Below are positions 1,748-27,511 of a DNA stretch of 32,000 nucleotides, one piece after another (the stretch's first letter is position 1; each line of letters opens with the position of its first letter). A model generated the notes under the pieces. It saw only the letters and a program-made list of their open reading frames with translations. It was not told the origin of the DNA and searched no databases. The position numbers and the translations under genes were made by a program. This DNA comes from Clostridia bacterium (lineage in GTDB: Bacteria; Bacillota; Clostridia; Christensenellales; Aristaeellaceae): NCBI GenBank assembly GCA_030526225.1, contig JAUNDF010000010.1, positions 1 through 32,000 on the forward strand, in the 5' to 3' direction.

Positions 1748-3100
1748 ATGAAAAAACATCTCATCGCAACATGTACAATTGTAGTTTTCTCCATCCTGAT
1801 ATTGTCTTCCGTTTGTTTAGCAGACAATGTTGTTAAAGCGTCATTCGTTCATAATGGAATGGAGTTTAAACTATTTTAGAGTGGAACAGCAGAACTTGTA
1901 AAAGTTCGAGATACGCGGTGCGTTAATTTTGAAATACCATCAACAGTAGAAGGATATCTTGTTACAACTATAAATAGCGCTGCTTTTTCAGATTGTAAAT
2001 CATTGGATATATTAATTATTCCGGATTCGGTAAGTTAGATAAATGGAAATCCGTTTGTTGACTGCAAGAATGTTCGATTTAGCATATCCGCACAACATCC
2101 TGCGCTTGCTGTTATCGATGGCGTTTTATTCTCAAAACCGGATAAAAGACTGATTTCGTATCCGGCATGGAAAGATAATAAAACATATGAAGTGCCGGAT
2201 GGAATTGTGACAATTGGTGATTGGGCTTTTGCTTATAATGAAAGATTATCAAGCATTATTCTGCCTAATACTGTAAAAACAATTGGAGAAAAGGCATTCA
2301 TATTTTGCAATAGACTATCTAAGATTAATCTGCCAGAGAGCGTAGAAACCATTGGGATAAATCCATTTTATGGATGCAACAAAGTTGATGTTAAAATAAA
2401 TAGCAAACAAGAGCACTATCTTGTGAAGAGTGGAGTGCTTATTTCAAAAAAAGATAGCAGAATGATTAGCTATCTGCTAGGTTCAACAAAAAAGTCTTAT
2501 TCCATACCTAAAAATGTTGAAGTTATTGGCGAGTATGCATTTTCTTGCAATGGTGACTTAAAGTCGATAGAAATGCCTAATAGCGTTAAAAAAATCTGTA
2601 AAGGTGCTTTTTTGGGATGCTATGATCTTCAAACGATTCGTCTTTCTGCTAACATCGAAATCATTGAAGAATAGCTTTTTTATAGCTGTCGTGAACTGAA
2701 AAGAATTGAAATTCCTCAAGGTGTGAAGGCGATTGGGAAAAGTGCGTTTGAAAATTGTGTATACCTCATAAGCGTAAAAATGCCAAATAGCTTAATATAG
2801 ATAGGAGATAGAGCCTTTGCTAACTGTAGTACCTTAACAAGTGTGAACGTTCCGTGCAATGTTACTACTATTGGATGGCGCGCATTTGAACATTGTACAA
2901 ATTTGGAAGAAATAATGATTCCTAAGAGCGTAAATAAAATAGCCTTCGATGCTTTTAAATATTGCGATAAAATAGTTGTGTATGTATAGCCTGATAGTTA
3001 TGCAGAATATGTCTTGCCACTTTCAGGTATACCTACCAACTATAAGGACACTGAAGTCCCTTTGACGAACTCAAGTGACTTTGGATGGCTTAAATAGTAA
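1748..3100 (+). CDS. Secreted BspA-type leucine-rich-repeat protein (450 codons) containing six in-frame TAG codons. It would be a pseudogene under the standard code.
   Basis: ATG at 1748 with RBS aaggagag. Signal peptide MKKHLIATCTIVVFSILILSSVCLA. About 12 repeats of IPxSVxxIGxxAFxxCxxL. I translated the single frame 1748-3100: the only interruptions are TAG at 1877, 2036, 2672, 2798, 2987 and 3095, and the frame ends at TAA 3098-3100. There are no frameshifts. GC is roughly 33 percent by eye. Confidence 0.6.
1877..1879 (+). other. In-frame TAG (candidate sense codon) in the LRR gene
   Basis: Context ...GMEFKLF[TAG]SGTAELV. In frame with ATG 1748 (offset 129). Confidence 0.55.
2036..2038 (+). 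other. In-frame TAG in the LRR gene
   Basis: IPDSVS[TAG]INGNPF aligns with LPESVETIGINPF of a sister repeat. Confidence 0.55.
2672..2674 (+). other. In-frame TAG in the LRR gene
   Basis: NIEIIEE[TAG]LFYSCRELKRIEIP. The repeat register continues across the codon. Confidence 0.55.
2798..2800 (+). other. In-frame TAG in the LRR gene
   Basis: MPNSLI[TAG]IGDRAFANC aligns with MPNSVKKICKGAFLGC. Confidence 0.55.
2987..2989 (+). other. In-frame TAG in the LRR gene
   Basis: Context KIVVYV[TAG]PDSYAEYV. Confidence 0.5.
3095..3097 (+). other. In-frame TAG immediately preceding the TAA of the LRR gene
   Basis: ...GWLK[TAG][TAA]. It is either a tandem stop or a final sense codon before the true TAA stop. 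Confidence 0.35.
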
Positions 3101-3787: not shown

Positions 3788-3816
3788 TTGACTGCAGCCG
3801 CCGGAGGTGCTACAAT
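3788..3816 (+). promoter_or_regulatory. Candidate sigma-A promoter (extended -10) for flotillin
   Basis: TTGACT (3788-3793), 17-nt spacer ending in TGc, TACAAT (3811-3816). Confidence 0.55.
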
Positions 3817-7238: not shown

Positions 7239-8972
7239 TTACTTGCCCAGGGCATAGGCAGCGGCGTTGGTGCCGGCAATGCGGCCGAAGACCACGATGT
7301 CGCACACTGCGTTGCCGCCGATGCGGTTGCCGCCATGGACACCGCCGGTGACCTCGCCGGCTGCGAACAGACCGTCGATGATGCTGCCCTCGGTGTTGAT
7401 GACGTGGGTGTCGGTATCAATCTTCAGGCCGCCCATGGTGTGATGGATGCCGGGAGATACCTTGATGGCGTAGTAGGGAGCCTGGGACAGGTCCTCGTCG
7501 ATGCCGTTGTTGCGGCCGAATTCCTCATCCACACCGGCTGCCACGGCAGCGTTCCACTTTTCCATGGAAGCGGCGAAGGCAGCGGGATCAACGCCCATCT
7601 GCTCGGCCAGACCCTCGTAGGTATCAGCGGTCACGGTGAGGCCGCCGTTGATGTACTTGGCCGTGGACTTCTGATGGTCAACGATGCGCTGGTCGAAGAT
7701 GATCCAGGCGAAGGAGCCGGGCTGCTTCAGTTCAGCCTGAGAAACAGCATCGCGGGTGGACATGTCGTTGGTGAAGCGGACGCCGTCGGCATTAATCAGG
7801 ATAGCACCGGCAGAACGCAGGGACTCGGTGATGAGCATGCTGGTTTCCTGATGCACAGTGGGGTGCAGCTGAATCTGATCCATATCCACGGTATCGGCAC
7901 CGATGGCGGTGGCCAGGATGATGCCGTCGCCGTCAGCACCGGAGTGGTTGGTGGTCACAGCGCCGTTGAGGGAAGGATCGTAGGAGCACATCAGGTCGAA
8001 GTTGGCACCGAAGCCGCCGGTGGCAACGATGACAGCACCGGCACGGATGGTGTAGTCATGCTTCTTGTCATGGGCCACAGCGCCGACCACCTTGCCGTCC
8101 TCCACCAGCAGCTCGGTGGCTTCGGTGTTGGTCATGGGCTTGATGTTCAGCTGGTCGCAAACGGCCATCATCTTTTCCACCAGGAAGTTGCCCACAGCGC
8201 TGCCGTCTTCCGGCTCGTGCAGGTACTTGTGGGTGGTGCCGCCGGTGGGGGCAATCTTGGGCAGGGGAGCGCCGATTTCCTCCAGCCATGCAATGGCCTC
8301 GGCGGAGTTTTCAGCCATGGTGGTGACCAGGGCCAGATCGTTCTTCTGGTGGCCGCCGTTCATGGTGTCTTCAATAAAGGTTTCCACAGTGCTGTCGGTG
8401 ATGCCGGCAGCGGCCTGCAGGTGGGTGGAGGCAGCGTTCATGCCGCCGGTAGCCTTCAGGGTGTTGCCGCCCACAAAGGCCATCTGCTCGAGGACGATGA
8501 CGTTGGCGCCTTCCTGAGCGGCCTTTACGGCAGCGGTGAGGCCTGCGCCGCCTGCACCGATAATCAGCACGTCGCAGCTCAGCTCCTCAGCGGTGCGCTC
8601 GGTATCGCCGGCCTGTTCCTTCTTTACCTCGAAGGGGGTGGGGTCGATGCCGGCTTCAATCAGCGCGTTCTTGGCAGCCTCGCGGATGGCCACGCTGGTC
8701 AGGGTGGCATTGGTCACATCGTCAACGGCCAGGGTGTTGTATTCCACCATGTCTGCGGGCACAGACTCCGCAGCGGGGCCGCCGATGGAGGGGGTTTCGT
8801 TGTGGGAGATAACCTTCACGTCGTAGATGGTGTTTGCGTCGGCGGTCACTTCAACCACCACTTCGCCGCCGATGGGGCTGATGGCTGTGCCCTGGGCGGT
8901 GACACCCTCTGCGGTGGCAGTCATGCCGAAGAGCATGGATACTGCCAGAATGATGCCGAGGATCTTTTTCAT
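7239..8972 (-). CDS. Exported flavoprotein reductase with an N-terminal FMN-binding domain and a fumarate-reductase/urocanate-reductase-type FAD domain
   Basis: The start was moved to MKKILGIILAVSMLFGMTATA (cat at 8970-8972, aaggagg upstream). Flavinylation-type motif DDVTNAT at 8703-8723. FAD dinucleotide fold DVLIIGAGGAGLTAA. C-terminal GLFAAGEVTGGVHGGNRIGGNA. Stop TAA. Confidence 0.88.
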   Translation of the reverse strand: MKKILGIILAVSMLFGMTATAEGVTAQGTAISPIGGEVVVEVTADANTIYDVKVISHNETPSIGGPAAESVPADMVEYNTLAVDDVTNATLTSVAIREAAKNALIEAGIDPTPFEVKKEQAGDTERTAEELSCDVLIIGAGGAGLTAAVKAAQEGANVIVLEQMAFVGGNTLKATGGMNAASTHLQAAAGITDSTVETFIEDTMNGGHQKNDLALVTTMAENSAEAIAWLEEIGAPLPKIAPTGGTTHKYLHEPEDGSAVGNFLVEKMMAVCDQLNIKPMTNTEATELLVEDGKVVGAVAHDKKHDYTIRAGAVIVATGGFGANFDLMCSYDPSLNGAVTTNHSGADGDGIILATAIGADTVDMDQIQLHPTVHQETSMLITESLRSAGAILINADGVRFTNDMSTRDAVSQAELKQPGSFAWIIFDQRIVDHQKSTAKYINGGLTVTADTYEGLAEQMGVDPAAFAASMEKWNAAVAAGVDEEFGRNNGIDEDLSQAPYYAIKVSPGIHHTMGGLKIDTDTHVINTEGSIIDGLFAAGEVTGGVHGGNRIGGNAVCDIVVFGRIAGTNAAAYALGK

Positions 8973-9069
8973 TGGTTCTTCCTCCTTATCATACAGGAAA
9001 GATTTCATTACGATAAAAGTATAACAATCTCCGCCCAAGGGGTGAAATTCATTTTTATCATTATTACTA

Positions 9070-9097
9070 TTCCAAACCGGCATAACTATGGTATAAT
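9070..9097 (+). promoter_or_regulatory. Candidate promoter for the LysR gene in the divergent intergenic region
   Basis: TTCCAA, 16-nt spacer ending in TGg, TATAAT (9092-9097). Confidence 0.4.
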
Positions 9098-9178
9098 AGA
9101 GACAAATGACGCAGGAAATGGCCGGAAACGGCGTTTTTGACGGATTTCCCAAGGGGATTATGCGGAGGATAAGGCAAA

Positions 9179-10108: not shown

Positions 10109-10136
10109 TTGCAATTGCGGGGAATCATGGTATAAT
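10109..10136 (+). promoter_or_regulatory. Candidate sigma-A promoter (extended -10) for recD2
   Basis: TTGCAA (10109-10114), 16-nt spacer ending in TGg, TATAAT (10131-10136). Confidence 0.5.
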
Positions 10137-10171
10137 GCGGAACAGATTTTACGAAAAAGGAGGCTGCCGCC

Positions 10172-12424
10172 TTGGAGCATGTGTAGGCCGGTGTCACCGG
10201 GACCATCTATCGCAATGAGGACAACGGGTATACTATCCTGACTGCCCGGGCCGGGCGCAGCGAAATCACCGTGGTGGGGACGCTCCCTGCCCTGTCCCCG
10301 GGGGAGCAGTGCGTGTTCCATGGCGACTGGGTGGAGCATCCGCAGTATGGGCGGCAGCTGAAGTGCACGGGCTGTGAAATCAAAAAGCCCACCACCCTGC
10401 TGGGCATTGAGCGGTATCTGGGCTCGGGGCTGATTCGCGGCGTGGGCCCTTCCACCGCCAAGCAGATTGTGGAAACCTTCGGCGAGGAAACGCTGACCAT
10501 CCTCAGCGAGCATCCGGAGCGGCTGCAGGAGGTCCCCGGCATGGGGCGCAAGCGCTGGCGGGTGATTGCGGAAAACTTTCAGGAGCAGAACGCCATGCGG
10601 GAATCCATGGTGTTTCTGCAGTCCTACGGCATTTCCCCCAACCTGTCGGTAAAAATCAGCCGGCTGTACGGCGACAGGACCGCCGATGTGATTAAAAACA
10701 ACCCCTACCGCCTTTGCGAGGATTTGGAAGGCGTGGGCTTTCAGACGGCGGACCGCATCGGCATGGCCATCGGCATTGCCGCGGACAGCGAGTTCCGCAT
10801 CCAGTCGGCGCTGAAGTACATGCTGCGGGAGGCCTCCGTCTCCATGGGCCATGTGTATCTGCCCCTGCGGGAGCTGGTAACGAAAACCGCCCAGCTGCTG
10901 CGCACGGAGGAGGCGCTGGTATCCCGGCAGGTGAAAACGCTGATGCTGCGGCGGGACATCATCTGCAAGCAGGAGGAGGGCGAGGAGGACATCCGCGTGT
11001 ATCTCGCCGCCTTTGACAGCGCCGAGAGCGAGGTGGCCAAGCGCCTGTGCGAGCTGATTGCCTCCCTTGCCCGGGAAGAAAACCCCCAGGCGGAGCAGGA
11101 CATCGACCGGTTTGAAAAGCGCCACGGCATCCACTTTTCCGCCCAGCAGAGAAAGGCCATCACCATGGCCATGGAGATGGCCCTGAAAAACCAGATCGTG
11201 GTGATTACCGGCGGCCCCGGCACCGGCAAAACAACGATTATCAACTGCATCATCTCCCTGCTTTCGCGCGATGGGGAGGTGAAGCTGTGCGCCCCCACCG
11301 GCCGCGCCGCCAAGCGCATGACATAGGCCACCGGCGTGGAGTCGAAGACCATCCACCGCCTGCTGGAATACGGCGGGGACGACGGCGCCTTTGCCCGGGA
11401 TCAGGATAACCCCATCGAGGGCGACTGCGTGATTGTGGACGAGACCTCCATGGTGGATTTGATGCTGATGCGCTCCCTGCTGCGGGCCATTGAGCCGGGG
11501 ACAAAGCTGATTCTGGTGGGCGATGCCGACCAGCTGCCCAGCGTGGGCGCGGGCAATGTGCTGGGGGATATCCTCGACAGCGGCATTGTGCCTGTGTGCC
11601 GCCTGACGGACATCTACCGGCAGGATGAACAGAGCCGCATTGTGGTCAATGCCCACCGCATCAACCGCGGAGAAATGCCCCTGCTCAACGAAAAGGGCAC
11701 GGATTTCTTCTTCGAGCGCAAGGATTCCTTTGCCCAGACGGCCCAGACCATTGTGCAGCTGATGACCAAACGGCTGCCCGCGTTTTTGAAATTCCCGGAG
11801 GATGAAACTGCGGACCGCGCCGTCCGGAGCATACAGGTGCTGGCACCGGCGAAAAAGGGCGAGTGCGGCGTTCTGGTGCTCAACACCATGCTGCAGGAAG
11901 CCCTCAATCCCCCCGCGGCGGACAAGCCGTTTATCAAATACGGCGAAACCATCTTCCGCCTTGGGGACAAGGTGATGCAGACCAAAAACGACTACCAGAT
12001 TGAGTGGCGCAAGGAAAGCCGCCTTGGCTGGGAGGACGGCAAGGGCGTGTTCAACGGCGACGTGGGCTACATCACTGCGGTGGATGAGGAGGAGCACTGC
12101 CTCACGGTCCTCTTTGATGAGGAAAAGGAAGTGGTGTACCAGTCCGCTCAGCTGGAAAATCTGGATCTGGCCTACTGCCTGTCGGTGCACAAGAGCCAGG
12201 GCAGCGAGTTCCCGGTGGTGATTATGCCCGTGGTGGGCGGCTCCAGCATGCTTTTGACCAGAAACCTGTTCTACACCGCCCTGACCCGTGCGCGGAGTCT
12301 GGTGGTGCTGGTGGGCCGGGAGGAAATCATCCGGCAGATGACGCAGAACAATCACATTCAGAAGCGGTACACCTCTCTGGCAGGGCGGCTGCGCATGATG
12401 GGTGCGCTGCTGCCCAAAGAGTGA
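10172..12424 (+). CDS. recD2: RecD2-type ATP-dependent DNA helicase (750 codons) with two in-frame TAG codons
   Basis: TTG 10172 lies 9 nt after aaaaaggagg. The N-terminal GTIYRNEDNGYTIL motif lies between TAG 10184 and the first standard-code start. HhH region, Walker A ITGGPGTGKTT, APTGRAAKRMT[TAG]ATGVESKTIHRLL, and helicase motifs through SVHKSQGSEF. ORFs 10271..11326 and 11336..12424 share one frame. Stop TGA. Confidence 0.8.
10184..10186 (+). other. In-frame TAG (candidate sense codon), recD2 codon 5
   Basis: ttg gag cat gtg TAG gcc ggt gtc acc ggg acc atc tat cgc aat gag gac aac ggg. The conserved N-terminal peptide follows it. Confidence 0.55.
11324..11326 (+). other. In-frame TAG in recD2, at a position that is Glu in RecD2 homologs as I recall them
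   Basis: GRAAKRMT[TAG]ATGVESKTIHRLL, compared with the family pattern GRAAKR(L/M)(S/T)E.TG..A.TIHRLL recalled from memory. Confidence 0.65.
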
Positions 12425-16020: not shown

Positions 16021-16419
16021 ATGGCGCGGGAAAACCGCATCACCCTGTGTCTGCCGGGGCAGGCCGATCATTCACTGGTGCTTCGCACCATGGTAGGCGG
16101 CGTGGCCTATCTGTATGACCTGAGCGTGGATGACATGGATGATCTTCGCGCCGCCGCGGATGAGGCCTTCGACTGCCTGCTGCATCAGGGCAGCACGGTG
16201 GAAAGCATCACCACCGACATTCTCCGGGAGGATGGCCGCGTATCAGCATTGCTGACGGCTGCCTTCGGGGAAAAGCAAACATCCGCCCCCGGCGAAGAGG
16301 AGAACGAAATCTCGCTGGCGGTACTGAAAACCATCATGCCCGATGTACAGCTGACCGTGGACGGGGAGGGCCGGATTGCGGCCATCCGCCTGACGCTTTC
16401 CACCGGGAGGGCATCATGA
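16021..16419 (+). CDS. Small SpoIIAB/RsbW-like anti-sigma-factor-like protein with a degenerate ATPase N-box
   Basis: ATG 16021 lies 8 nt after GGGAGG. AADEAFDCLLHQG resembles the anti-sigma kinase box E-A-x-x-N-A-x-x-H-G, but Cys replaces the Asn. The stop overlaps the sigma-factor start (ATGA). Confidence 0.45.
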   Translation: MARENRITLCLPGQADHSLVLRTMVGGVAYLYDLSVDDMDDLRAAADEAFDCLLHQGSTVESITTDILREDGRVSALLTAAFGEKQTSAPGEEENEISLAVLKTIMPDVQLTVDGEGRIAAIRLTLSTGRAS

Positions 16420-17144
16420 TGGAAGAAGACATCAATGCCCTGCTGGCAGGGTATGCCCGTGCACCGGAGCCGGAGACGCTGAACCGGCTGACGGAGCATT
16501 TTCTGCCCCTGTCGCGGCAGGTGGCGGCCAAATTCTATGGGCGCGGTGCCGAAATGGAGGATTTGCGGCAGGTGGCAGCCATGGCGCTGATGAACGCCAT
16601 CAAACGCTTCGACCCTGACAAGGGGGTCAAGTTTACCACCTTCGCCGTTACCACCATGGCGGGTGAGGTGCGCAACCACCTGCGGGACAAGGCCGCGCTC
16701 ATTCGCCCCTCCCGTGATTTGCGGGAAAAGGCGGCGCAGGTGAACAAAATCACCGACCGGCTGGCCCAGCAGCTGCTGCGGGAGCCTACCGTGCGTGAAA
16801 TTGCCGGCGAAATGAACATCACCCCCGATGAGCTGCTGCACATCCTCGACAGCCGGGAAAAGCTGGAGGTTGCCTCCCTGAACGAAATCTCCGGGGAGGA
16901 TGACCGCGCCCTTGAGGAGCGGCTTGGTCAGACCGACGGCGGCTACGAGGCCGTGGAGCAGCGGGACATGTGGCAGTGGATTATGCGCCAGCTGACCGGG
17001 CAGGAGCAATTGCTGGTCCGGCTGCGTTATGTATAGCGGATGGGTCAGCGGGAGTGCGCCGCCAGAATGAACCTGTCGCAAATGCAGGTCAGCCGCATGG
17101 AGCGGCGCATGCTGGCGCGCATCCGCAGCAAAATGACATCATAA
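16416..17144 (+). CDS. Group-3 sigma-70 family factor (SigF/SigG/SigB-like, 242 aa) with one in-frame TAG before region 4.2
   Basis: Region 2 (DLRQVAAMALMNAIKRFDPDKGVKFTTFAVTTMAGEVRNHLRD), region 3, then LLVRLRYV[TAG]RMGQRECAARMNLSQMQVSRMERRMLARIRSKMTS. The region 4.2 HTH is encoded only after the TAG. Stop TAA at 17142-17144. Confidence 0.8.
17034..17036 (+). other. In-frame TAG (candidate sense codon) in the sigma factor
   Basis: cgt tat gta TAG cgg atg ggt cag. The HTH follows in the same frame. Confidence 0.65.
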
Positions 17145-17174
17145 ACAAGGATTGAAACCAAGGAGCGTGAAAGG

Positions 17175-18392
17175 ATGTACAGAGAAACACCGCCGATGGC
17201 ACCGCAGCCGAGGAAGAAGCTGCATGCTGTGCAGATTGTCATCATCGTGGTGGCCGTGCTGTTTGCCCTGTGGTACCTGTACAAAACCCTGGTGCCGGCG
17301 GCAACGCCCTATGCCACCATACAGGCAGGCACCCTGGGTGCAAGATACTCCGGCGATGTGCTCATCGTCCGGGATGAGACCCCCTATGATGCCGAGGGCG
17401 TGAGCAGCATCGAGTATGTGGCGGAGGAGGGCAAGGTGGCCCGCAACCGCTCCACCATCTGCAATGTGTTCTCCACCGGTTATTCCACCAAGGAGACCAC
17501 CGCCCTGCAGAACTACCGCGACCAGATCAAGCAGTATCAGCTGCAGCTCATCGGCGAGGAAACCACCTACGATGCCCGCATGGAGCGGCTGGACAGCGAT
17601 GTTTTGTAGCTGGCCCGGGAATTCCGCGCCATGATTGCCGGTCAGCCCGGCAATTTGCTCAATCAGGAAACGCTGCTCAATGCCGCCATCGGCTCCCGTC
17701 AGCTGTATCTGAAGAAAAAGTACGGCTCCGACCAGCGCCTCAGCCGGTTGTATGACGACGAACAGAGCCAGCTGCAGCGCATTGCCAGCTGGACCAAGCA
17801 GTATACCGCCGCGGGCGAGACCATCGTCAGCTTTTATACCGACGGCTATGAATACGGCCTGACCGCCTCCAACTTCCGTGATTTTACCCCGCAATAGGTC
17901 CGGAAGATGATTGCCGGTCAAAAGCCGGAGCTGACCACGGCCCAAAAGGGCAAGACCACCATCTACCGCACCGTGCGTGACGGCGTGTGGTACGCGCTGA
18001 TGCTGGTGAAGGACTCCACATGGAATCCGGTGGAGGGCCAGACCTACGAGCTGAAGCTGGAGCGGGTGGAAAACACCCGTGTGCTGGCCACGGTGGAATC
18101 CTTTACAAGAAACGGCAATGAGCTGCTGGTGCGCCTTGTGGTGCATGACTCCGTGGAGCCGGTGCTGTACATGCGCACCTGTCAGGCAGAGCTGGGCGAT
18201 TATGTGCAGAGCCTGATGGTGCCCAAGCGCGCCATCTATACCCAGGACAACATGACCGGCGTGGTGGTGCTGGACGGTGCCAATCAGCTGTTTGTGCCGG
18301 TGAACATCCTTTTGGAGGACGGCGGCAATGTGTACATCTCCGCCATCACCCAGGGTCTGCTGTATGAAGGGCAGACCGTGATGCTGTTCTGA
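17175..18392 (+). CDS. HlyD-like membrane-anchored protein (405 codons) with two in-frame TAG codons
   Basis: N-terminal TM anchor (VQIVIIVVAVLFALWYLY). ORFs 17175..17609, 17631..17897 and 17907..18392 are in one frame, separated only by TAG codons. Beta-barrel-like C-terminus. The family call is from general resemblance only. Stop TGA. Confidence 0.6.
17607..17609 (+). other. In-frame TAG in the HlyD-like gene
   Basis: Context RLDSDVL[TAG]LAREFRAMIAG. Confidence 0.5.
17895..17897 (+). other. In-frame TAG in the HlyD-like gene
   Basis: Context NFRDFTPQ[TAG]VRKMIAGQKPEL. Confidence 0.5.
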
Positions 18393-18429
18393 TGCGGCAT
18401 ATCTCAAGCAGGAAGGAAGGTCTTTGCGG

Positions 18430-19134
18430 ATGGAACTGAACCGGGAGCAGATTGCCCAGCGGTACGAGGAAATTTGCGCGGAGGTACAGCAGCTGGCGGA
18501 TGAAAGCGGCTATGCTGTGCCCAAAATCGTTGCGGTCACCAAGACCCATCCCCTGGAGACCATTTTGCCCATCCGGGAGCTGGGCATCCGTGAGGTGGGC
18601 GAGAACCGGGTGCAGGAAATTATGGAAAAACTGCCTGCGCTGGAAGAAAATTTTCAGATTCACCTGATTGGAAGGTTGCAATCCAATAAAGTTAAATATA
18701 TAATAAACCATGTATGCCTTATTCATTCTGTGGACAGGCTCAGCCTTGCGCAGGAGATTGACCGCCAGGCCCAAAAGGCCGGAAGGCGGATGCCTGTGCT
18801 TGTTCAGGTGAGCCCCGCAGGGGAAGAGCAGAAGGGCGGCATCCCTCCCGAGGAGACGGAGGCCTTCCTTCGGCAGCTGGCACAATTGCCCGGCCTTGAT
18901 GTGCGCGGGCTGATGGCTGTGATGCCAAAATCAGAGGATGAAGCGTACCTGTCGGGGCTTTTTGCCGATATGCGTGCGCTGTTTGAGCGTCTTCGGGACG
19001 AAAACATAGAGGGGATTACCATGGAGGAGCTTTCCATGGGCATGTCCGGCGATTACCGGCTGGCCGTGCGCCATGGCGCAACCATCATCCGGGTGGGCAG
19101 TGCGCTCTTCGGGCCCCGGGATTATTCCGTGTGA
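18430..19134 (+). CDS. yggS: YggS/YlmE-family pyridoxal-phosphate homeostasis protein
   Basis: VAVTKTHP (Lys of the PLP site), GENRVQE, HLIGRLQSNKVK, SMGMSGDY, IRVGSALFG. An alternative TTG start lies at 18424. Stop TGA. Confidence 0.9.
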   Translation: MELNREQIAQRYEEICAEVQQLADESGYAVPKIVAVTKTHPLETILPIRELGIREVGENRVQEIMEKLPALEENFQIHLIGRLQSNKVKYIINHVCLIHSVDRLSLAQEIDRQAQKAGRRMPVLVQVSPAGEEQKGGIPPEETEAFLRQLAQLPGLDVRGLMAVMPKSEDEAYLSGLFADMRALFERLRDENIEGITMEELSMGMSGDYRLAVRHGATIIRVGSALFGPRDYSV

Positions 19135-19156
19135 TTGTGTGTAGGGGGTAAACGAA

Positions 19157-20356
19157 TTGTCTTTTAAGGATTGGAAACAACAGCTTGCATCCAGGCTGCG
19201 CGGCAAGGGCGCACAGCAGCAGGAGGAAGACCGGTTCTCCGGCTCCTTCAGCGGCTATCATCCTGCCGGCAACCGGGATATGTACGATACATCCCGCATG
19301 GCTGCCCAGCAGCAGGAGCCCCAGCAGGCGGCCTATCAGCCCCAGCAGGAGATGAACGGCATGATGCCCGAGCAGGGCTATGCCCCTCAGATGCAGGGCT
19401 ATACCTGGCAGCAGCAGGCACAGCAGATGAACATGCCGCCCGTGCCCCAGCAGACAACATGGCAGCCCCAGCAGGAGATGCGCCAGCAGACCTCCTCCTG
19501 GCAGACGGCATGGCAGCCCCGTCAGGAGCAGCCCGCCCCCGAAGCGGCAGGCCGCCAGAATCAGCCCCGGCAGGACAACATCAGCTACCTGAATGTCAAC
19601 TTCACCGGCAGTGACGGCCGCGGCTATGTGGGCGTGGAGCGCGCCGTGCTTTTGGCCGGCATCAGCGACTGCAACCGCGTGATTGAATACATGCGCAACA
19701 ACGAGTCGGTCATCCTGAACATGGATAACATCGCCGACGACAAGGAAGTGCAGCGCTGCCTGGATTTCGTATCCGGTGCCGCCTTCACCCTTGAATATAC
19801 CGTCACCAAGCTGAGCCGCAGCAAGCGCATCTACATGCTGTCCCCTGCGGTGATTCTGGTGCTGACCGATGCCGGCATGGCCAACTGGAAGACCGGTGCC
19901 GATGCCCAGCCCCTGCGCGAGCAGGCAGAGGAAAGCCGCGCATGGACCGAGCAGCCCGCCTACGGTGACCGCCGCGCCGCCTATGAAGCACCCTATGCCC
20001 AGCAGAGCTACGGCAATGCTCAGGGCTACACCGCCCGCCAGTCCTATGAGGACATGCAGCAGGGCTACACCATGCAGCAGAGCTATGGCCAGCAGGGCTA
20101 CACGGCCCAGCAGCCCTATTACGATATGCAGCAGGGCTATACCGCCCAGCAGCCCTACTATCAGCAGGGCTATACCATGCAGCAGCCCGCCTATGAGCAG
20201 TATGCCCAGCCCCAGATGACCTTCGGTCAGGTGGCAGCCGTACCGCCCTACAGCACCGGCAGTGTGGATGTATCCGGCGCCGCACCCCGCAGCGCCTATG
20301 ATTCCGATACCCGCCGCGGCTTCTACGGCACGGCGCAGACCCAGCTTGCCCGATAA
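19157..20356 (+). CDS. sepF: SepF-domain cell-division protein with long Gln/Tyr-rich low-complexity extensions
   Basis: Central SepF-like core (VLLAGISDCNRVIEYMRNNESVILNMDNIADDKEVQRCLDFVSGAAFTLEYTVTKLSRSKRIYMLSP). Positioned between yggS and yggT as in Firmicutes division (dcw) clusters. TTG start 8 nt after GGGGG. Stop TAA. Confidence 0.72.
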   Translation: MSFKDWKQQLASRLRGKGAQQQEEDRFSGSFSGYHPAGNRDMYDTSRMAAQQQEPQQAAYQPQQEMNGMMPEQGYAPQMQGYTWQQQAQQMNMPPVPQQTTWQPQQEMRQQTSSWQTAWQPRQEQPAPEAAGRQNQPRQDNISYLNVNFTGSDGRGYVGVERAVLLAGISDCNRVIEYMRNNESVILNMDNIADDKEVQRCLDFVSGAAFTLEYTVTKLSRSKRIYMLSPAVILVLTDAGMANWKTGADAQPLREQAEESRAWTEQPAYGDRRAAYEAPYAQQSYGNAQGYTARQSYEDMQQGYTMQQSYGQQGYTAQQPYYDMQQGYTAQQPYYQQGYTMQQPAYEQYAQPQMTFGQVAAVPPYSTGSVDVSGAAPRSAYDSDTRRGFYGTAQTQLAR

Positions 20357-20368
20357 GGGGGTGGCCTG

Positions 20369-20644
20369 ATGCTGCTGTTGATGCGCATTCTCCGCATGGC
20401 ACTGCTGGTGTATGAGCTGCTGCTCATCGCCTATGTGCTGCTCAACTGGCTCAAGCCCGCCGCCAACCGCTGGACGGAGCTGCTCCGCCGCGTGACCGAG
20501 CCGGTGCTCACGCCCCTTCGGGTGGCCATTGTTTCCCGGCTGCCGGCAAGGTATCAGCCCATTGACTGGTCCCCTGTGGCGGCACTTGCGATTTGTGAAA
20601 TCATCGGCTGGATTCTCGGCAGAATCGCCGCCATTTTCGCATGA
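20369..20644 (+). CDS. yggT: YggT/YlmG-family membrane protein
   Basis: 91 aa with two TM helices. VYELLLIAYVLLNWL...TEPVLTPLR is typical of YggT. The stop overlaps the ylmH start (ATGA). Confidence 0.85.
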   Translation: MLLLMRILRMALLVYELLLIAYVLLNWLKPAANRWTELLRRVTEPVLTPLRVAIVSRLPARYQPIDWSPVAALAICEIIGWILGRIAAIFA

Positions 20645-21390
20645 TTAAGGATACTGCACAGCAGCTGAAGCTGCGGCTGAATCAGCTGGCCCAGCGGGCC
20701 GACAGGCTGTACTGCGCTGTCCCCGGCCGCTTTCTGGCGGCAGAGGAGCAGGCCATGGCACAGGATGCCGCCCGGGATAACGGGGTGGATGTATCCTTTT
20801 GCGGCGGCTGGAGTGATGCATAGCGGGTGCAGGTGTGCTTTCATCCCTTCGGGGAGGAGCCGCTGTTTACCGCCCAATGGGTGGAAGCCAAATGGAACAG
20901 CCGCTTTTCCACCGCGGCCCACAGCGATTTGCTGGGGAGCCTGATGGCCCTTGGCATGGAGCGTGCCTTTCTGGGCGACATCATCGTTGAGGAAGGCCGG
21001 GCACTGGTCTGCGTGATGCCCGAGCTGGCGGCTCGTCTGCCGGTGGAATGGACAAGCGCGGGACGCACGCCCATCTGGGTATCGGTGCTGGGCAGCCCGC
21101 CTGAAATTGCCCCGCCTGAAGGGAAGCAGCTGCGCGACACAGTGCCGTCCCTGCGGCTGGACTGCGTGGTGGCAAGCGGCATGAAGCAATCCCGCACCAA
21201 AGCGGCATAGCTGATTCGTCAGGGGCTGGTGATGGTCAATCATCGCCCGTAGGAACGCTGTGACCGGCTGCTGCAGGAGGGCGCACTGGTATCCATCCGC
21301 CATTTCGGCAGAATCCGTCTGCTGGAGGTGGGGGAACCCACCCGCAAGGACCGGCTGCCCGTGGTGCTGGAAATATTCGCGAAGAAATAA
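20641..21390 (+). CDS. ylmH: YlmH-like S4-domain RNA-binding protein (249 codons) with three in-frame TAG codons
   Basis: GGWSDA[TAG]RVQV matches the YlmH GGY..AER motif. The S4 domain reads LRLDCVVASGMKQSRTKAA[TAG]LIRQGLVMVNHRP[TAG]ERCDRLLQEGALVSIRHFGRIRL. All segments share one frame. Stop TAA at 21388-21390. Confidence 0.75.
20821..20823 (+). other. In-frame TAG in ylmH at the conserved Glu of GGY..AER
   Basis: GGWSDA[TAG]RVQVCFHP, compared with B. subtilis YlmH GGYDRAERKRA (recalled from memory). Confidence 0.65.
21208..21210 (+). other. In-frame TAG in the ylmH S4 domain
   Basis: Context SRTKAA[TAG]LIRQGLVMVN. Confidence 0.6.
21250..21252 (+). other. In-frame TAG in the ylmH S4 domain
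   Basis: Context VNHRP[TAG]ERCDRLLQEGALVSIRHFGR. Confidence 0.6.
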
Positions 21391-21433
21391 TTAAATCCAC
21401 ATAAACGGCCCAACAAGAAAGGAGATTTTCACC

Positions 21434-21913: not shown

Positions 21914-21921
21914 TGCTTCAA

Positions 21922-21952
21922 GACCTCTGCCCGCTGCGGCAGGGGTCTTTTT
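21922..21952 (+). terminator. Rho-independent terminator after divIVA
   Basis: gacctctgcc / ggcaggggtc stem followed by ttttt. Confidence 0.75.
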
Positions 21953-22068
21953 CCATGCACGCAGGCAGGAAAAATGGGGCTTTGCATCGAATAGCATAAA
22001 TTGGATGAGTATCGTCCGTTGAATCCTGCAAATGCACATGATGGTTCATCATAGAAAAGAGGTATTTT

Positions 22069-23169
22069 ATGGCAGACAAGCAGCAGACAACCTGCCCCCG
22101 CGTGGATATCGGCGGTCAGGCAGTGATGGAAGGCGTGATGATGAAGGGCCCCGATGCCATCGCCATCACCGTCAGACGGCCCGATGGCTCCATGGCCGTG
22201 CGCTATGAGCCCTATGTGGCCCTGAGCAAAAAGCACAAGTGGATGGGCTGGCCCGTCATCCGCGGCGCCGTGAACATGGCCAACATGCTGGTCATGGGCA
22301 TGCAGACGCTGGAAACCTCCACCAAGATGCTGGGCATCATGGATGAGGAGCCCACCAAGTTTGAAAAATGGCTGGCAGAGAAGCTGGGCAAGGGCATCGA
22401 CAAGGTGGTCATGGGCATGGCCATGATTCTGGCCGTGATTCTGTCCGTGGGCCTGTTTATCCTTGTGCCCACCGCCGTGGAAAAGGGCATCATTGCCTGG
22501 ACCGGCTCCACCACCGCCGCAACGCTGGTGGGCGGCGTTGTGAAGATTCTGCTGCTCATCGGCTACATGATTTTCTGCGGCATGGTGCCCGATGTGCGCC
22601 GCACCTTCCAGTACCACGGTGCCGAGCACAAGACCGTGTACTGCCACGAGCATGACCTGCCCCTGACCCCCGAAAACGCCAAGGGCTTCACTACCCTGCA
22701 CCCCCGCTGCGGCACCGCATTTTTGCTGATTGTGTTCGTCATCTCCATTCTGATGACGCTGCTCATCGGCCGGGGCATCACCGTGTTTATCTGGCGGTTC
22801 CTGTTCCATCTGGCCATGCTGCCGGTGATTGCAGGCGTCAGCTACGAGGTGCTGAAGGGTCTGGCCCACAGCGACAGCAAGCTGGCCCGTGCGCTCCGCT
22901 GGCCCGGACTGCAGATGCAGCGCCTGACCACCCGCGAGCCCGACGAAAAGATGCTGGAATGCGCCATCGTTTCCATGAATGTGGCCCTGTACGGCCTGCC
23001 CAAAAATGCGCCCAAGAACCGGGACGGCTTCACCATCCTGCACAGCTACAAGGAATCCGAAAAGGGCTATGTGTTTGAAAAGCCCGAGGTGAAGCCGGTT
23101 GCGGAAGCAGCTGAAGCTGTTGCCGAAGAAGCAGATGAAGAAGCGCCTGTTCAGGAGCCCCAGGCATGA
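22069..23169 (+). CDS. DUF1385-family membrane protein (commonly a prmC neighbour)
   Basis: IGGQAVMEGVMMKG...YHGAEHKTV...HPRCGT are hallmarks of DUF1385. The stop overlaps the prmC start (ATGA). Confidence 0.85.
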   Translation: MADKQQTTCPRVDIGGQAVMEGVMMKGPDAIAITVRRPDGSMAVRYEPYVALSKKHKWMGWPVIRGAVNMANMLVMGMQTLETSTKMLGIMDEEPTKFEKWLAEKLGKGIDKVVMGMAMILAVILSVGLFILVPTAVEKGIIAWTGSTTAATLVGGVVKILLLIGYMIFCGMVPDVRRTFQYHGAEHKTVYCHEHDLPLTPENAKGFTTLHPRCGTAFLLIVFVISILMTLLIGRGITVFIWRFLFHLAMLPVIAGVSYEVLKGLAHSDSKLARALRWPGLQMQRLTTREPDEKMLECAIVSMNVALYGLPKNAPKNRDGFTILHSYKESEKGYVFEKPEVKPVAEAAEAVAEEADEEAPVQEPQA

Positions 23170-24008
23170 CACCCAGACAGCTGATTCGCGAAACGGCGAA
23201 GCAATTTCAGGCGGCGGGTGTGCCCGATGCCCTGCTGGATGCATCCCTGCTGCTGGCCCACCTGACCGGCATGGAGCCCATGGCCCTGCGGCTGGATGAG
23301 GATACACAGCTGGCGGAGGACATCCTCCGGCAATACGCACAGCTGGCCCGGCGCCGCTGTCAGCGCGAACCCTTGCAATATCTGACCGGGGAAGTTGTCT
23401 TCCTCGGTCGTGTTTTCCATGTGGACAGCCGCGTGCTGATTCCCCGGCCCGAAACGGAGCTGCTGGTGGAATTAGCCGCATCAGAGCTGAAAAAGCACGG
23501 TGCGGGTGCCAAGGCCCTTGACCTGTGCTGCGGCAGCGGCTGCATCGGCGTATCCCTTGCACTATAGGTGCCGGGGAGCGAGGTGCATCTGTCCGATTTA
23601 TCTGCCGATGCACTGGCGGTGACCGGCATCAACGCCGAAGCCCTTGCGGCAAAGGTACAGCTGCATCACGGCGATATGTTTGCGCCGCTGGAGGGTGAAC
23701 GGTTCCACGTGCTGGTGTCCAATCCGCCGTATATCCCCGCGGAGGATTGCCGTCAGCTGCAGGCAGAGGTCCTGCGGGAGCCCATGACCGCCCTTGACGG
23801 CGGCGAGGACGGGTACGATTTCTACCGCACCATCGCAAAGGAAGCGCCCCGTCATCTGCTGCCCGGCGGTGCCCTCTTTCTGGAGATCGGCTGGGATCAG
23901 GCCGAAGGGGTGTGCCGCCTGCTGAGGGAAGCCGGCATGGTGCAGGTGACAAGCCATCAGGACTACAACGGCATTAGCCGCATGGTGGAAGCCCACATGG
24001 CTGATTGA
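23166..24008 (+). CDS. prmC: Release-factor glutamine N5-methyltransferase PrmC/HemK (280 codons) with one in-frame TAG
   Basis: EPLQYLTGEVVFLGRVFHVDSRVLIPRPETE, SAM motif DLCCGSGCIGVSLAL[TAG]VPGSEVHLSDLS, and the catalytic NPPY (VSNPPYIP), which lies downstream of the TAG. ORFs 23166..23567 and 23568..24008 share one frame. Stop TGA. Confidence 0.8.
23565..23567 (+). other. In-frame TAG (candidate sense codon) in prmC
   Basis: gca cta TAG gtg ccg ggg. It aligns with the E of E. coli PrmC ALASERPDCEI (recalled from memory). Confidence 0.62.
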
Positions 24009-24038
24009 GTTTGAACGACGCAAAAGGATGAAGAAGCA

Positions 24039-25091
24039 ATGAAAACGCAAGTGCTGGGCCCCGCGCAGGAGAATCTGCAGGCCGCGGCTGAGCTGCTCCG
24101 AAGCGGGCAGCTGGTGGCCTTTCCTACGGAAACGGTGTACGGTCTGGGTGCCAATGCCTTTGACAAGGATGCGGTGCTGTCCATCTTTGCCGCCAAGGAC
24201 CGCCCTGCAGATAATCCCCTGATTGTGCACGTGTGGTGCCGGGAGCAGCTGAAGGACATCTGCGAGGTATCCGAAACGGCAGAAAAGCTGATGGATGCCT
24301 TCTGGCCCGGCCCGCTGACCATCCTGATGCCGCGGAAGGAATCCATCCCCCTGGAGGTGACCGCGGGTCTGCCCACGGTGGCGGTGCGCATGCCCTCCCA
24401 TCCGGTGGCGGCGGCACTGCTGAAGGCTTGCAATGTGCCCGTGGCGGCACCCAGCGCCAATCGCTCCGGCAAGCCCAGCCCCACCTCTGCACGGTATGTG
24501 TATCAGGATATGGATGGCCGCATCCCCATGATTATCGACGGCGGGGACTGCGATGTGGGCCTTGAGTCCACGGTGCTGGATATCGGCCACGGCAAGCCCT
24601 GCATCCTCCGTCCCGGCGGCGTGACCCGGGATATGCTGGAAAAAGTGCTGGGTGAGGTGGATGTGGCCGGCAGCGTACTGCGCCCCCTGCAGCAGGGCGA
24701 GGTGGCCCTGTCCCCCGGCATGCGCTACAAGCACTACGCCCCCAACGGTCAGGTGGTGCTGGTGGAAGGGGAGGAGCAGCAGGTGGTTGGGGCACTGCGC
24801 CGCTTGTGTGAAGAGGCCGCGCAAAACGGTCACAAGAGCTGTGTGATGTGCTTTACCGAGCATGCGGAACAGCTGGCGGATTGCCATCCCTTCGATCTGG
24901 GCAGCATCCATCGCCCGGAGGAGACCGCCCGCTGTCTGTTTGATACCCTGCGCCGGCTGGATGACGTGGGCATGGATGCCATCTTCAGCGAGGTACTGCC
25001 CCCCGAGGGTATCGGCCTTGCGGTGATGAACCGTCTGGGCCGCGCTGCCGGCTTCCATTCCGTGCAGGCGGAGGATATCCTGCGGGACTGA
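24039..25091 (+). CDS. tsaC: L-threonylcarbamoyladenylate synthase (TsaC/Sua5/YwlC type, with a Sua5 C-terminal domain)
   Basis: VAFPTETVYGLGANAFD, KDRPADNPLIVHV, PGPLTIL, APSANRSGKPSPT. Stop TGA. Confidence 0.9.
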   Translation: MKTQVLGPAQENLQAAAELLRSGQLVAFPTETVYGLGANAFDKDAVLSIFAAKDRPADNPLIVHVWCREQLKDICEVSETAEKLMDAFWPGPLTILMPRKESIPLEVTAGLPTVAVRMPSHPVAAALLKACNVPVAAPSANRSGKPSPTSARYVYQDMDGRIPMIIDGGDCDVGLESTVLDIGHGKPCILRPGGVTRDMLEKVLGEVDVAGSVLRPLQQGEVALSPGMRYKHYAPNGQVVLVEGEEQQVVGALRRLCEEAAQNGHKSCVMCFTEHAEQLADCHPFDLGSIHRPEETARCLFDTLRRLDDVGMDAIFSEVLPPEGIGLAVMNRLGRAAGFHSVQAEDILRD

Positions 25092-25160
25092 CGGGAAGGA
25101 AATCACGCCCATACGCGTTATATCATTGAAAAGCAAAGGGAAAGGCAAAGGAGGTGCGGC

Positions 25161-27423: not shown

Positions 27424-27511
27424 GGTCAATCCCTCTTCCTTCAGGATGGGTCTATTATAGCATATTCCCGGGGAAAATGGCAAATCGGATGCGCCATCCT
27501 GTCTGATTCTG

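What the first reader, a model, noticed from the sequence alone, without database searches (positions are those of the whole stretch)
10172..12424. recD2 needs two UAG read-throughs, including codon 5, to encode its conserved N-terminus and helicase core
With TTG 10172 as start (9 nt after aaaaaggagg), the protein begins MEHV[TAG]AGVTGTIYRNEDNGYTIL. That N-terminal motif is typical of RecD2 and lies between the TAG and the first standard-code start (GTG 10271). The second TAG (11324) sits between Walker A and the rest of the helicase motifs. Under the standard code the gene would give a Walker-A-only fragment and a separate fragment without Walker A.
Basis: partly seen in the sequence, partly recalled or inferred. 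Interest (0 to 1): 0.7.

Follow-up and report, generated by a model that had tools for sequence, protein, structure and literature searches.

The report
Bacterium reading TAG stop as glutamate
The two TAG "stops" inside recD2 are real, and they look like one symptom of a wider change: this gut Clostridia bacterium appears to read TAG as glutamate in many genes and has lost the release-factor-1 gene from its usual place, which would be the first natural amber-to-amino-acid code change found in a bacterium.

Summary
recD2 (10172-12424, +) has in-frame TAGs at codons 5 and 385 and is otherwise an intact, full-length RecD2 (TIGR01448, 877 bits, one continuous match). Both TAG columns are invariant Glu in 120/120 closest homologs. 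The pattern is not specific to this gene. Nine in-frame TAGs lie in five conserved genes: recD2, a sigma factor, a HlyD-like gene, ylmH and prmC. Six more lie in a low-GC LRR gene. There is no in-frame TAA or TGA anywhere, and none of 31 genes ends in TAG. In five syntenic relative species, 7 of the 9 columns are conserved Glu (mostly GAG) and none is Gln. Relatives carry DUF1385-prmC-prfA-sua5. The window has DUF1385-prmC-(30 nt)-sua5, so prfA (RF1) is cleanly missing. Relatives almost never use TAG as a stop (2/135), which fits codon capture. The best reading is an organism-wide UAG-to-Glu reassignment after RF1 loss, probably through a tRNA-Glu(CUA). GenBank (MAG "Clostridia bacterium", locus tag Q4C54) annotates the pieces as separate proteins under table 11. 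I found no report of a bacterial UAG-to-Glu code. The evidence rests on one MAG from one sequencing run.

The parts
10172..12424 (+). recD2 (SF1B helicase RecD2), conceptual 750-aa product with two in-frame TAGs
   Evidence: TIGR01448 scores 877 bits, with protein residues 8-739 matching profile positions 3-712 of 713 in one stretch. 120 uninterrupted homologs of 743-750 aa at 71-76% identity.
10159..10163 (+). Shine-Dalgarno GGAGG, 8 nt upstream of the TTG start
   Evidence: Read directly from the sequence. The start position agrees with Met1 of the orthologs.
10184..10186 (+). In-frame TAG, recD2 codon 5
   Evidence: The column is Glu in 120/120 homologs. The ortholog codon is GAG or GAA.
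11324..11326 (+). In-frame TAG, recD2 codon 385 (motif Ia region, ...APTGRAAKRMT-x-ATG...)
   Evidence: The column is Glu in 120/120 homologs and Glu in D. radiodurans RecD2 3E1S.
16416..17144 (+). Sigma-70 family (sporulation-type) sigma factor with an in-frame TAG at 17034-17036. Region 4.2 continues for 36 codons after it.
   Evidence: orthologs have E in 4 of 5 species and H in 1. GenBank annotates only the 206-aa stump, MDO4483364.
17175..18392 (+). HlyD_2 / BSH_RND_rel-like gene with in-frame TAGs at 17607-17609 and 17895-17897
   Evidence: The pieces match HlyD_2 profile positions 9-133 and 257-385. Ortholog residues are D/T/S at the first TAG and E in 5/5 at the second.
20641..21390 (+). 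ylmH (S4-domain RNA-binding protein) with in-frame TAGs at 20821, 21208 and 21250
   Evidence: Orthologs have E in 4/4 species at all three columns. The Logan gene calls split it into 60-aa and 127-aa pieces.
23166..24008 (+). prmC (release-factor glutamine methyltransferase) with an in-frame TAG at 23565-23567
   Evidence: The column is variable in 120 homologs (A 56, G 28, E 19, D 10). GenBank splits the gene into MDO4483375 and MDO4483376.
24009..24038 (+). 30-nt prmC-sua5 spacer, the position where relatives carry prfA (RF1, about 1.06 kb)
   Evidence: Relatives L008 and L009 have DUF1385-prmC-prfA-sua5. Their prfA scores 487.9 bits on TIGR00019, above the 423 cut-off, and carries PVT and GGQ motifs. 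tblastn finds no RF1 remnant in the window (best E = 0.85). The flanking genes are orthologous at 69-74% identity.
22069..23169 (+). DUF1385 gene, upstream anchor of the conserved prmC-prfA cluster
24039..25091 (+). sua5 (L-threonylcarbamoyladenylate synthase), downstream anchor of the cluster
1748..3100 (+). Low-GC BspA-type LRR gene with in-frame TAGs at 1877, 2036, 2672, 2798 and 2987, plus TAG 3095 directly before the TAA stop
   Evidence: PF13306 LRR_5. There is no in-frame TAA or TGA even though GC3 is 0.28. The TAG columns are hypervariable.

Best explanation
recD2 is an intact, functional gene. Its two TAGs are sense codons because the organism, an uncultured Clostridia bacterium near the family Aristaeellaceae, no longer uses UAG as a stop. 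The proposed mechanism has four steps. (1) In this family TAG had already almost disappeared as a terminator. (2) The prfA gene, which encodes RF1, the only factor that reads UAG, was lost. RF2 then terminates at UAA and UGA, and prmC is kept to methylate RF2. (3) A tRNA with anticodon CUA charged with glutamate decodes UAG. The simplest origin is a tRNA-Glu(CUC) copy with a C36-to-A change. (4) GAG-to-TAG changes then became synonymous and accumulated. TAG now makes up about 1.4% of Glu codons in the GC-rich genes. What the sequence shows: in-frame TAGs at conserved Glu columns in several unrelated housekeeping genes, purifying selection downstream of them, no TAG terminators, and prfA absent from its syntenic slot. 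What is inferred: the suppressor tRNA, genome-wide absence of RF1, the order of events, and actual translation.
For: There are 15 in-frame TAGs in six genes, no in-frame TAA or TGA, and the 31 genes end in TAA (17), TGA (14) or TAG (0). Across five syntenic relative species, 7 of the 9 TAG columns in conserved genes are Glu, mostly encoded by GAG, and none is Gln. The chance of 7 or more Glu-consensus columns out of 9 is about 3e-7. The two recD2 columns are Glu in 120/120 homologs and the second is also Glu in Deinococcus RecD2. RecD2 is under purifying selection on both sides of the TAGs (298 of 308 invariant columns kept) and matches TIGR01448 end to end. prfA is present between prmC and sua5 in relatives and is precisely absent here, with no remnant. 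Relatives use TAG for only 2 of 135 stops, which is the expected precondition for codon capture. In the AT-rich LRR gene, GAA (20) far outnumbers GAG (4), yet all six internal stops are TAG and none is TAA. That pattern is incompatible with random nonsense mutation. The TAG sites share no downstream structure or motif, which argues against a site-specific recoding signal. An independent Logan assembly of run SRR24915835 gives 100% identical DNA over 9.1 kb that includes 7 of the TAGs.
Against: No tRNA(CUA) was seen. The window holds only tRNA-Thr(GGT), and the rest of the MAG could not be reached. RF1 absence is shown only at the syntenic locus, so a relocated prfA is not excluded. All evidence comes from one MAG and one sequencing run. 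No closer relative than about 76% identity exists in the databases, so conservation of TAG sites across species could not be tested, and two degenerate-pattern scans of JGI metagenomes found no other instance. Two of the nine columns are variable and not Glu in relatives, and the six LRR columns are uninformative. Zero TAG terminators out of 31 is not significant on its own, because relatives also avoid TAG (P = 0.63). There are no expression or proteome data.
Confidence: 0.78

Rival explanations
1. UAG has a dual meaning or is only suppressed. RF1 is still encoded elsewhere in the genome, and a suppressor tRNA, or efficient near-cognate reading, lets ribosomes pass in-frame TAGs with partial efficiency. 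This would be amber suppression rather than a full reassignment.
For: RF1 absence is shown only at one locus. No tRNA was seen. TAG is still a rare codon, 9 of 9216 in the GC-rich genes.
Against: The prfA slot is cleanly empty, while its neighbours stay orthologous and adjacent. A TAG at codon 5 of recD2 and three TAGs in ylmH would compound into large protein losses if suppression were partial. No gene in the window ends in TAG. Near-cognate reading in RF1-less E. coli inserts Gln, Tyr or Lys (my reading of PMC4333366, listed), not Glu, whereas the columns here are Glu.
Confidence: 0.12
2. TAG encodes another amino acid. One option is glutamine, as in phage code 15, through a tRNA-Gln(CUA) that a non-discriminating GluRS and GatCAB might process to Gln or leave as Glu. 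The other option is pyrrolysine.
For: TAG-to-Gln is the common natural amber reassignment, and many Clostridia make Gln-tRNA through Glu-tRNA-Gln (both from general knowledge). Two of the nine columns and the LRR columns do not specify Glu.
Against: Seven of nine columns are conserved Glu and none is Gln, although CAG (358) is as common as GAG (382) in these genes. Two columns are Glu in 120/120 homologs. TAG is one step from the GAG that the orthologs use. The sites lie in helicase, sigma and S4 proteins rather than methylamine methyltransferases, and there is no PYLIS-like structure.
Confidence: 0.06
3. The TAGs are damage. They could be recent G-to-T nonsense mutations in a decaying or mutator lineage, which would make these pseudogenes, or sequencing or assembly errors. 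In either case the genes really are broken.
For: All conserved-column events are compatible with a single GAG-to-TAG transversion. There is only one MAG and one run. Every TAG is preceded by a purine, which could be a mutational context.
Against: All 15 events produce TAG and none produces TAA or TGA, even in the AT-rich LRR gene where GAA outnumbers GAG 20 to 4. There are no frameshifts or other lesions. Conservation downstream is as high as upstream. The events hit at least five unrelated housekeeping genes within 14 kb. Two assemblers give identical sequence. The separate, clean loss of prfA cannot be explained by point errors.
Confidence: 0.03
4. The effect is gene-specific programmed read-through of recD2, a regulatory recoding event limited to this gene.
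For: This is the simplest reading if only 10172-12424 is inspected.
Against: Thirteen further in-frame TAGs occur in five other genes. The sites share no motif or structure. prfA is lost.
Confidence: 0.01

Closest known systems
Bacterial UGA reassignments with RF2 loss (table 4: Mycoplasmatales and various endosymbionts, UGA=Trp; table 25: Absconditabacteria/Gracilibacteria, UGA=Gly)
   Same: The logic is the same. A stop codon becomes rare, its dedicated release-factor gene is lost, and a tRNA with the matching anticodon captures the codon. Public annotation under table 11 then fragments the genes (PMC13462651, PMC8629427).
   Different: The codon here is UAG, not UGA. The factor lost is RF1, not RF2. 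The amino acid is Glu. The genome is GC-rich (about 60%) and belongs to a gut anaerobe, not an AT-rich reduced genome. According to PMC8629427, all known bacterial stop reassignments involve UGA.
Code 15 in gut phages (TAG=Gln; Lak, crAss-like and other phages)
   Same: The same codon is read as sense in a gut-microbiome setting, and a suppressor tRNA is the presumed decoder (10.1101/2021.08.26.457843; 10.1101/2022.01.06.475225).
   Different: Those are phage genomes infecting standard-code hosts. The amino acid there is Gln, and recoding is concentrated in late genes. Here the TAGs are in chromosomal housekeeping genes in conserved synteny, the columns are Glu and not Gln, and the cellular prfA is missing.
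Eukaryotic nuclear codes with UAG or UAR = Glu (peritrich ciliates, table 30; an oligohymenophorean ciliate with UAG=Glu, PMC10553269; Blastocrithidia nonstop, PMC12153298)
   Same: The codon-to-amino-acid assignment is the same, presumably through a tRNA-Glu whose anticodon changed by one base.
   Different: Those are eukaryotic nuclear systems with a single omnipotent eRF1. They share no release-factor gene loss of this type and no common ancestry with this case.
Pyrrolysine decoding of UAG (Methanosarcinales and some Bacillota or Deltaproteobacteria)
   Same: An in-frame UAG is translated in prokaryotic genes.
   Different: Pyl sits at specific sites in methylamine methyltransferases and needs pylTSBCD. 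Here the TAGs replace conserved Glu in unrelated housekeeping proteins.
Engineered RF1-free E. coli (C321.deltaA, RFzero strains, 'Ochre' GRO; PMC11903333, PMC4434889)
   Same: The cell state is the same: no RF1, UAG freed from termination, and RF2 carrying termination.
   Different: Those strains are synthetic and their UAG is assigned to non-canonical amino acids. This case would be a natural counterpart.
RecD2 helicases (TIGR01448; D. radiodurans RecD2, PDB 3E1S/3GP8; B. subtilis YrrC)
   Same: The conceptual product is a full-length member, with the OB_YrrC N-terminus, HHH_RecD2, Walker A, motifs Ia to VI and the SH3_13 domain.
   Different: The only difference is the two Glu positions written as TAG.

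Membership tests
RecD2 (SF1B helicase, TIGR01448) | Full-length match to the equivalog model above its curated cut-off | tested here: met
   877.2 bits against a cut-off of 500. Protein residues 8-739 match profile positions 3-712 of 713 in a single stretch spanning both TAG sites.
RecD2 (SF1B helicase, TIGR01448) | Helicase motifs (Walker A GxGxGKT, motif II DExx, motif V/VI) and the N-terminal OB fold | tested here: met
   GGPGTGKT at aa 347-354, VDETSM at 422-427, VHKSQGSE at 672-679 and YTALTRAR at 701-708. The N-terminus aligns with homologs that carry PF23139 OB_YrrC.
Stop-codon reassignment with release-factor loss | In-frame stop codons of one kind only, in many unrelated conserved genes that are otherwise intact | tested here: met
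   15 TAG, 0 TAA and 0 TGA in frame across six genes. Downstream sequence is conserved.
Stop-codon reassignment with release-factor loss | The codon aligns consistently with one amino acid in homologs | tested here: met
   Glu at 7 of 9 columns across five species, 120/120 at the two recD2 columns, and no Gln column. The six LRR columns are uninformative.
Stop-codon reassignment with release-factor loss | The codon is no longer used as a terminator | tested here: inconclusive
   0 of 31 genes end in TAG, but relatives also use TAG for only 2 of 135 stops, so the window alone cannot discriminate.
Stop-codon reassignment with release-factor loss | The gene for the cognate release factor (prfA/RF1) is absent from the genome | tested here: inconclusive
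   It is absent from its conserved slot between prmC and sua5 and from the whole 32-kb window.
Stop-codon reassignment with release-factor loss | A tRNA gene with the complementary anticodon (CUA) is present | not testable with these tools
   The only tRNA in the window is tRNA-Thr(GGT). Other contigs of the MAG could not be fetched.
Stop-codon reassignment with release-factor loss | Protein-level confirmation (peptides spanning the codon) | not testable with these tools
   No proteomic or Ribo-seq data were available.
Code 15 (TAG=Gln) | TAG aligns with conserved Gln columns | tested here: not met
   0 of 9 columns are Gln and 7 of 9 are Glu.
Pyrrolysine system | TAG in methylamine methyltransferase genes, pyl genes nearby, and an optional PYLIS structure | tested here: not met
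   The TAGs are in helicase, sigma, HlyD-like, S4, PrmC and LRR genes. The window has no pyl genes. Downstream folding does not differ from GAG controls (p = 0.41).

The most novel reading that the evidence does not exclude
A free-living, GC-rich gut Clostridia lineage (a sister of Aristaeellaceae, known from a single MAG) has deleted prfA and reads UAG as glutamate through a tRNA-Glu-derived CUA tRNA. This would be the first natural bacterial genetic code in which the amber codon is a standard sense codon, and the first natural bacterium living without RF1.
Probability: 0.65. Interest if true: 0.92.

Novelty: new variant of a known kind. Interest (0 to 1): 0.85.

Why it matters
All accepted bacterial stop-codon reassignments involve UGA and RF2 loss (PMC8629427, PMC13462651). 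UAG has been seen as sense only in phages (Gln), in Pyl users, and in eukaryotes. RF1 is treated as universal in bacteria and has been removed only by engineering. A natural RF1-less bacterium with UAG=Glu would have four consequences.

- It would show that the amber codon can be captured in a cellular bacterial genome, and in a GC-rich, non-reduced one.
- It would give a natural test of the codon-capture route, because the relatives already avoid TAG stops.
- It would offer a naturally orthogonal chassis and a tRNA/GluRS pair of interest for genetic code expansion.
- It would matter for phage-host biology, since standard-code phages and plasmids with TAG-terminated genes would be mistranslated.

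There is also a practical point. The GenBank record splits at least five genes into fragments under table 11. Genomes like this one will also score as low quality and be dropped from reference sets, so similar cases may be systematically hidden.

Tried and rejected
- **Fetching the rest of the source genome.** Exact-protein look-ups returned only two Logan contigs inside the window. The NCBI contig was not retrievable. So tRNA(CUA) and genome-wide prfA could not be checked.
- **Searching for closer relatives that share the TAGs.** The genome-contig scan gave one 50%-identity Oscillospiraceae locus. A search with the 351-aa N-terminal fragment gave nothing above 71% identity. The truncated RecD2 hits on long contigs end in frameshift-like tails or at contig ends, not at Glu columns. 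Degenerate DNA patterns requiring TAG at recD2 site 2 or ylmH site 1 gave 0 hits in JGI metagenomes.
- **Using the LRR gene to infer the amino acid.** 150 giant LRR homologs were collected. The TAG positions fall in hypervariable repeat columns, where S, T and Y are the commonest residues and E makes up 5-8%, so this was uninformative.
- **TAG-terminator depletion as evidence.** This was rejected as non-discriminating, because relatives also avoid TAG.
- **Translational meaning of the A before TAG.** It looked striking at first (Fisher p = 1e-5). However, every TAG trinucleotide in the GC-rich part, in any frame and on either strand, is preceded by A or G, so it may be a DNA-level bias. I left it unexplained.
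- **Two more TAGs upstream of sepF (19007 and 19142).** These lie upstream of the ortholog-supported TTG start at 19157, so they are not coding.
- **Rfam.** The only hit in the window is the tRNA.
- **Literature search by run or locus tag.** Searching for SRR24915835 and Q4C54 found nothing.
Full report
**1. The observation**

The stretch 10172-12424 (+) reads as one frame with exactly two internal stops, both TAG, at 10184-10186 (codon 5) and 11324-11326 (codon 385). It ends in TGA at 12422-12424. TTG 10172 lies 8 nt after GGAGG (10159-10163), and a TATAAT box sits at 10132-10137. Under the standard code only two ORFs exist: 10271-11326 (351 aa) and 11336-12424 (362 aa). Walker A (GGPGTGKT, aa 347-354) lies before TAG 2, and motifs II to VI lie after it.

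**2. recD2 is an intact gene if TAG is read**

With X at the two TAGs, the 750-aa product finds 120 uninterrupted RecD2 proteins of 743-750 aa at 71-76% identity and about 100% coverage. They come from Clostridia and Aristaeellaceae MAGs. Both TAG columns are Glu in 120/120 of them. The second column is also Glu in Deinococcus RecD2, PDB 3E1S. With Glu inserted, the product scores 877 bits on the RecD2 equivalog TIGR01448 in a single stretch, with protein residues 8-739 matching profile positions 3-712 of 713. Of 308 columns invariant in the 120 homologs, the window keeps 298. Two of the ten exceptions are the TAGs, and the others are conservative changes. Identity to the closest homolog is 74% before TAG 2 and 80% after it. 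The sequence downstream of both TAGs is therefore under purifying selection.

**3. The pattern is not specific to recD2**

I built a gene map from codon-position GC and synteny. It gives 31 genes ending in TAA (17) or TGA (14) and none ending in TAG. There are 15 in-frame TAGs and no in-frame TAA or TGA. The TAG-bearing genes other than recD2 are:

| Gene | Coordinates | In-frame TAG positions |
|---|---|---|
| Sigma factor | 16416-17144 | 17034 (region 4.2 continues after it) |
| HlyD_2-like gene | 17175-18392 | 17607, 17895 |
| ylmH | 20641-21390 | 20821, 21208, 21250 |
| prmC | 23166-24008 | 23565 |
| Low-GC BspA-type LRR gene | 1748-3100 | 1877, 2036, 2672, 2798, 2987, 3095 |

TAG is rare in every frame of the coding sequence (9 in frame, 6 and 3 out of frame), and the in-frame class is the largest.

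**4. Source and independence**

Exact protein look-ups identify the window as part of a 38,163-bp contig of a GenBank MAG named "Clostridia bacterium" (locus-tag prefix Q4C54, proteins MDO4483350-83). Two Logan contigs assembled independently from run SRR24915835 are 100% identical to window 16833-22194 and 22173-25906, which contain 7 of the TAGs. GenBank annotates the pieces as separate proteins under table 11. Examples are a 206-aa sigma stump, two HlyD fragments, a YlmH fragment, two PrmC halves and an LRR fragment. The recoding has therefore not been recognised in the public record.

**5. Which amino acid**

Five relative species share the gene order recD2-...-aspartokinase-TauE-(131 aa)-sigma-HlyD-like-yggS-sepF-yggT-ylmH-divIVA (loci L002, L003/L004, L011, L012 and L013). 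Ortholog residues at the nine TAG columns of conserved genes are:

| TAG column | Ortholog residues |
|---|---|
| recD2 codon 5 | E in 5/5 |
| recD2 codon 385 | E in 5/5 |
| sigma codon 207 | E in 4, H in 1 |
| HlyD-like codon 145 | D, T, S, S, T |
| HlyD-like codon 241 | E in 5/5 |
| ylmH codons 61, 190, 204 | E in 4/4 at each |
| prmC codon 134 | A in 2/2 (120 homologs: A 56, G 28, E 19, D 10) |

The ortholog codon is usually GAG. Seven of nine columns are conserved Glu, against a background Glu frequency of 7%, which gives P of about 3e-7. No column is Gln, although CAG (358) is as frequent as GAG (382) in these genes. The LRR columns fall on hypervariable repeat positions and say nothing. 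The best inference is TAG = Glu, one transversion away from GAG.

**6. Release factor 1**

In two relatives the order is rpmE-DUF1385-prmC-prfA-sua5 (L008 from GCA_051886675.1, Aristaeellaceae, and L009). The factor there is RF1: TIGR00019 at 487.9 bits against a cut-off of 423, with the PVT tripeptide and GGQ motif. In the window, DUF1385 (22069-23169), prmC (23166-24008) and sua5 (24039-25091) are orthologous at 69-74% identity. But prmC and sua5 are separated by only 30 nt, and tblastn finds no RF1 remnant anywhere in the 32 kb. prfA has been cleanly removed from its conserved position. prmC is retained, as expected, because it also methylates RF2.

**7. Evolutionary plausibility**

The relatives use TAG for only 2 of 135 stops, against TGA 89 and TAA 44. 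The 0/31 count in the window is therefore not significant by itself (P = 0.63). It does show that the family was already close to TAG-free termination, which is the classical precondition for losing the release factor and capturing the codon.

**8. Rival explanations**

- **Random nonsense mutation or sequencing error.** This cannot explain why all 15 events give TAG and none gives TAA or TGA. In the AT-rich LRR gene GAA outnumbers GAG 20 to 4, yet all six events are TAG. It also cannot explain the absence of other lesions, the identical result from two assemblers, or the separate clean prfA deletion.
- **Site-specific recoding signals.** The sites share no downstream structure (p = 0.41 against GAG controls) and no motif.
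- **Gln or Pyl.** These are disfavoured by the column identities.
- **Dual meaning or suppression.** The rival that remains open is that RF1 survives elsewhere in the genome and UAG is only suppressed. The window cannot settle this.

**9. What is not shown**

No tRNA(CUA) was seen. The window holds only tRNA-Thr(GGT) at 825-900. The rest of the MAG was not retrievable. No closer relative than about 76% identity exists in the protein collection. Degenerate-pattern scans for TAG at two of the sites found nothing in JGI metagenomes. The trait is therefore known from one genome and one run. Translation itself is inferred.

**10. Comparison with what is known**

The literature held here states that all known bacterial stop reassignments are UGA-to-Trp or UGA-to-Gly with RF2 loss (PMC8629427; PMC13462651). 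UAG-to-Gln is known in gut phages. UAG or UAR to Glu is known only in ciliates and Blastocrithidia. RF1-free bacteria are known only as engineered strains. Searches for natural prfA loss with UAG reassignment in bacteria, and for the family Aristaeellaceae, gave nothing relevant. The mechanism class is known: stop-codon capture after release-factor loss. This codon, factor, amino acid and host combination is not.

**11. Verdict**

The deeper explanation is a probable organism-wide UAG-to-Glu reassignment with loss of RF1. My confidence is about 0.78 that TAG is a sense codon here. It is about 0.65 for the full package of Glu, RF1 truly lost, and a dedicated tRNA. Interest is 0.85.

Noticed in passing
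window 24009-24038 (between prmC 23166-24008 and sua5 24039-25091): prfA (RF1) is missing from the conserved DUF1385-prmC-prfA-sua5 cluster that relatives carry. Only a 30-nt spacer remains, and there is no remnant elsewhere in the window.
   Followed up: yes
window 1748-3100 (+), next to tRNA-Thr at 825-900: A single low-GC gene (about 39% GC, GC3 0.28) for a BspA-type LRR protein sits in a 60% GC region. It holds 6 of the 15 in-frame TAGs (TAG 6, GAG 4, GAA 20), all at hypervariable repeat positions. The last TAG sits directly before the TAA stop. Its origin and the reason for the high TAG density are unknown.
   Followed up: partly
all TAG trinucleotides, window 3700-32000, both strands: Every TAG is preceded by a purine. 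On the + strand the counts are A 27, G 32, T 2, C 0. On the - strand they are A 56, G 56, T 1, C 0. CTAG is absent and TTAG nearly so. For in-frame TAGs this means the preceding codon ends in A in 6 of 9 cases, although only 7.7% of codons end in A, and relatives have G or C there. The cause is unexplained.
   Followed up: partly
stop codons of the 31 genes in the window, compared with L002-L013: TAA makes up 55% of stops in the window against 33% in relatives (Fisher p = 0.024). In relative L011 the two TAG-terminated genes are the sigma and ylmH orthologs, whose window counterparts end in TAA.
   Followed up: partly
window 21434-23169 compared with L012 and L013 (about 21-22 kb) and L008 and L009 (2.4-6 kb): There is a local rearrangement. 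In the window, divIVA is followed directly by DUF1385-prmC-sua5. In relatives, divIVA is followed by a DEAD_2 helicase, and DUF1385-prmC-prfA-sua5 lies elsewhere, behind rho-rpmE.
   Followed up: no
GenBank proteins MDO4483350, 364, 365, 367, 372, 375 and 376 (window genes at 2192-2671, 16416-17033, 17175-17606, 17907-18389, 20827-21207, 23166-23564 and 23583-24005): The public record annotates the TAG-interrupted genes as separate truncated proteins under table 11. The MAG was also not found among the GTDB species representatives in the genome-contig scan.
   Followed up: yes
window 19007-19009 and 19142-19144: Two further TAGs lie in the sepF reading frame but upstream of its ortholog-supported TTG start (19157). 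They overlap or follow yggS (which ends at 19134) and are most likely not translated.
   Followed up: yes
window starts of recD2 (10172), aspartokinase (13780), yggS (18424), sepF (19157), and genes at 3788, 7239-9152(-) and 26572-27483(-): TTG start codons are unusually frequent: 7 of the 28 genes whose starts lie inside the window, going by the longest ORF or the ortholog alignment. Most starts were not individually verified.
   Followed up: no
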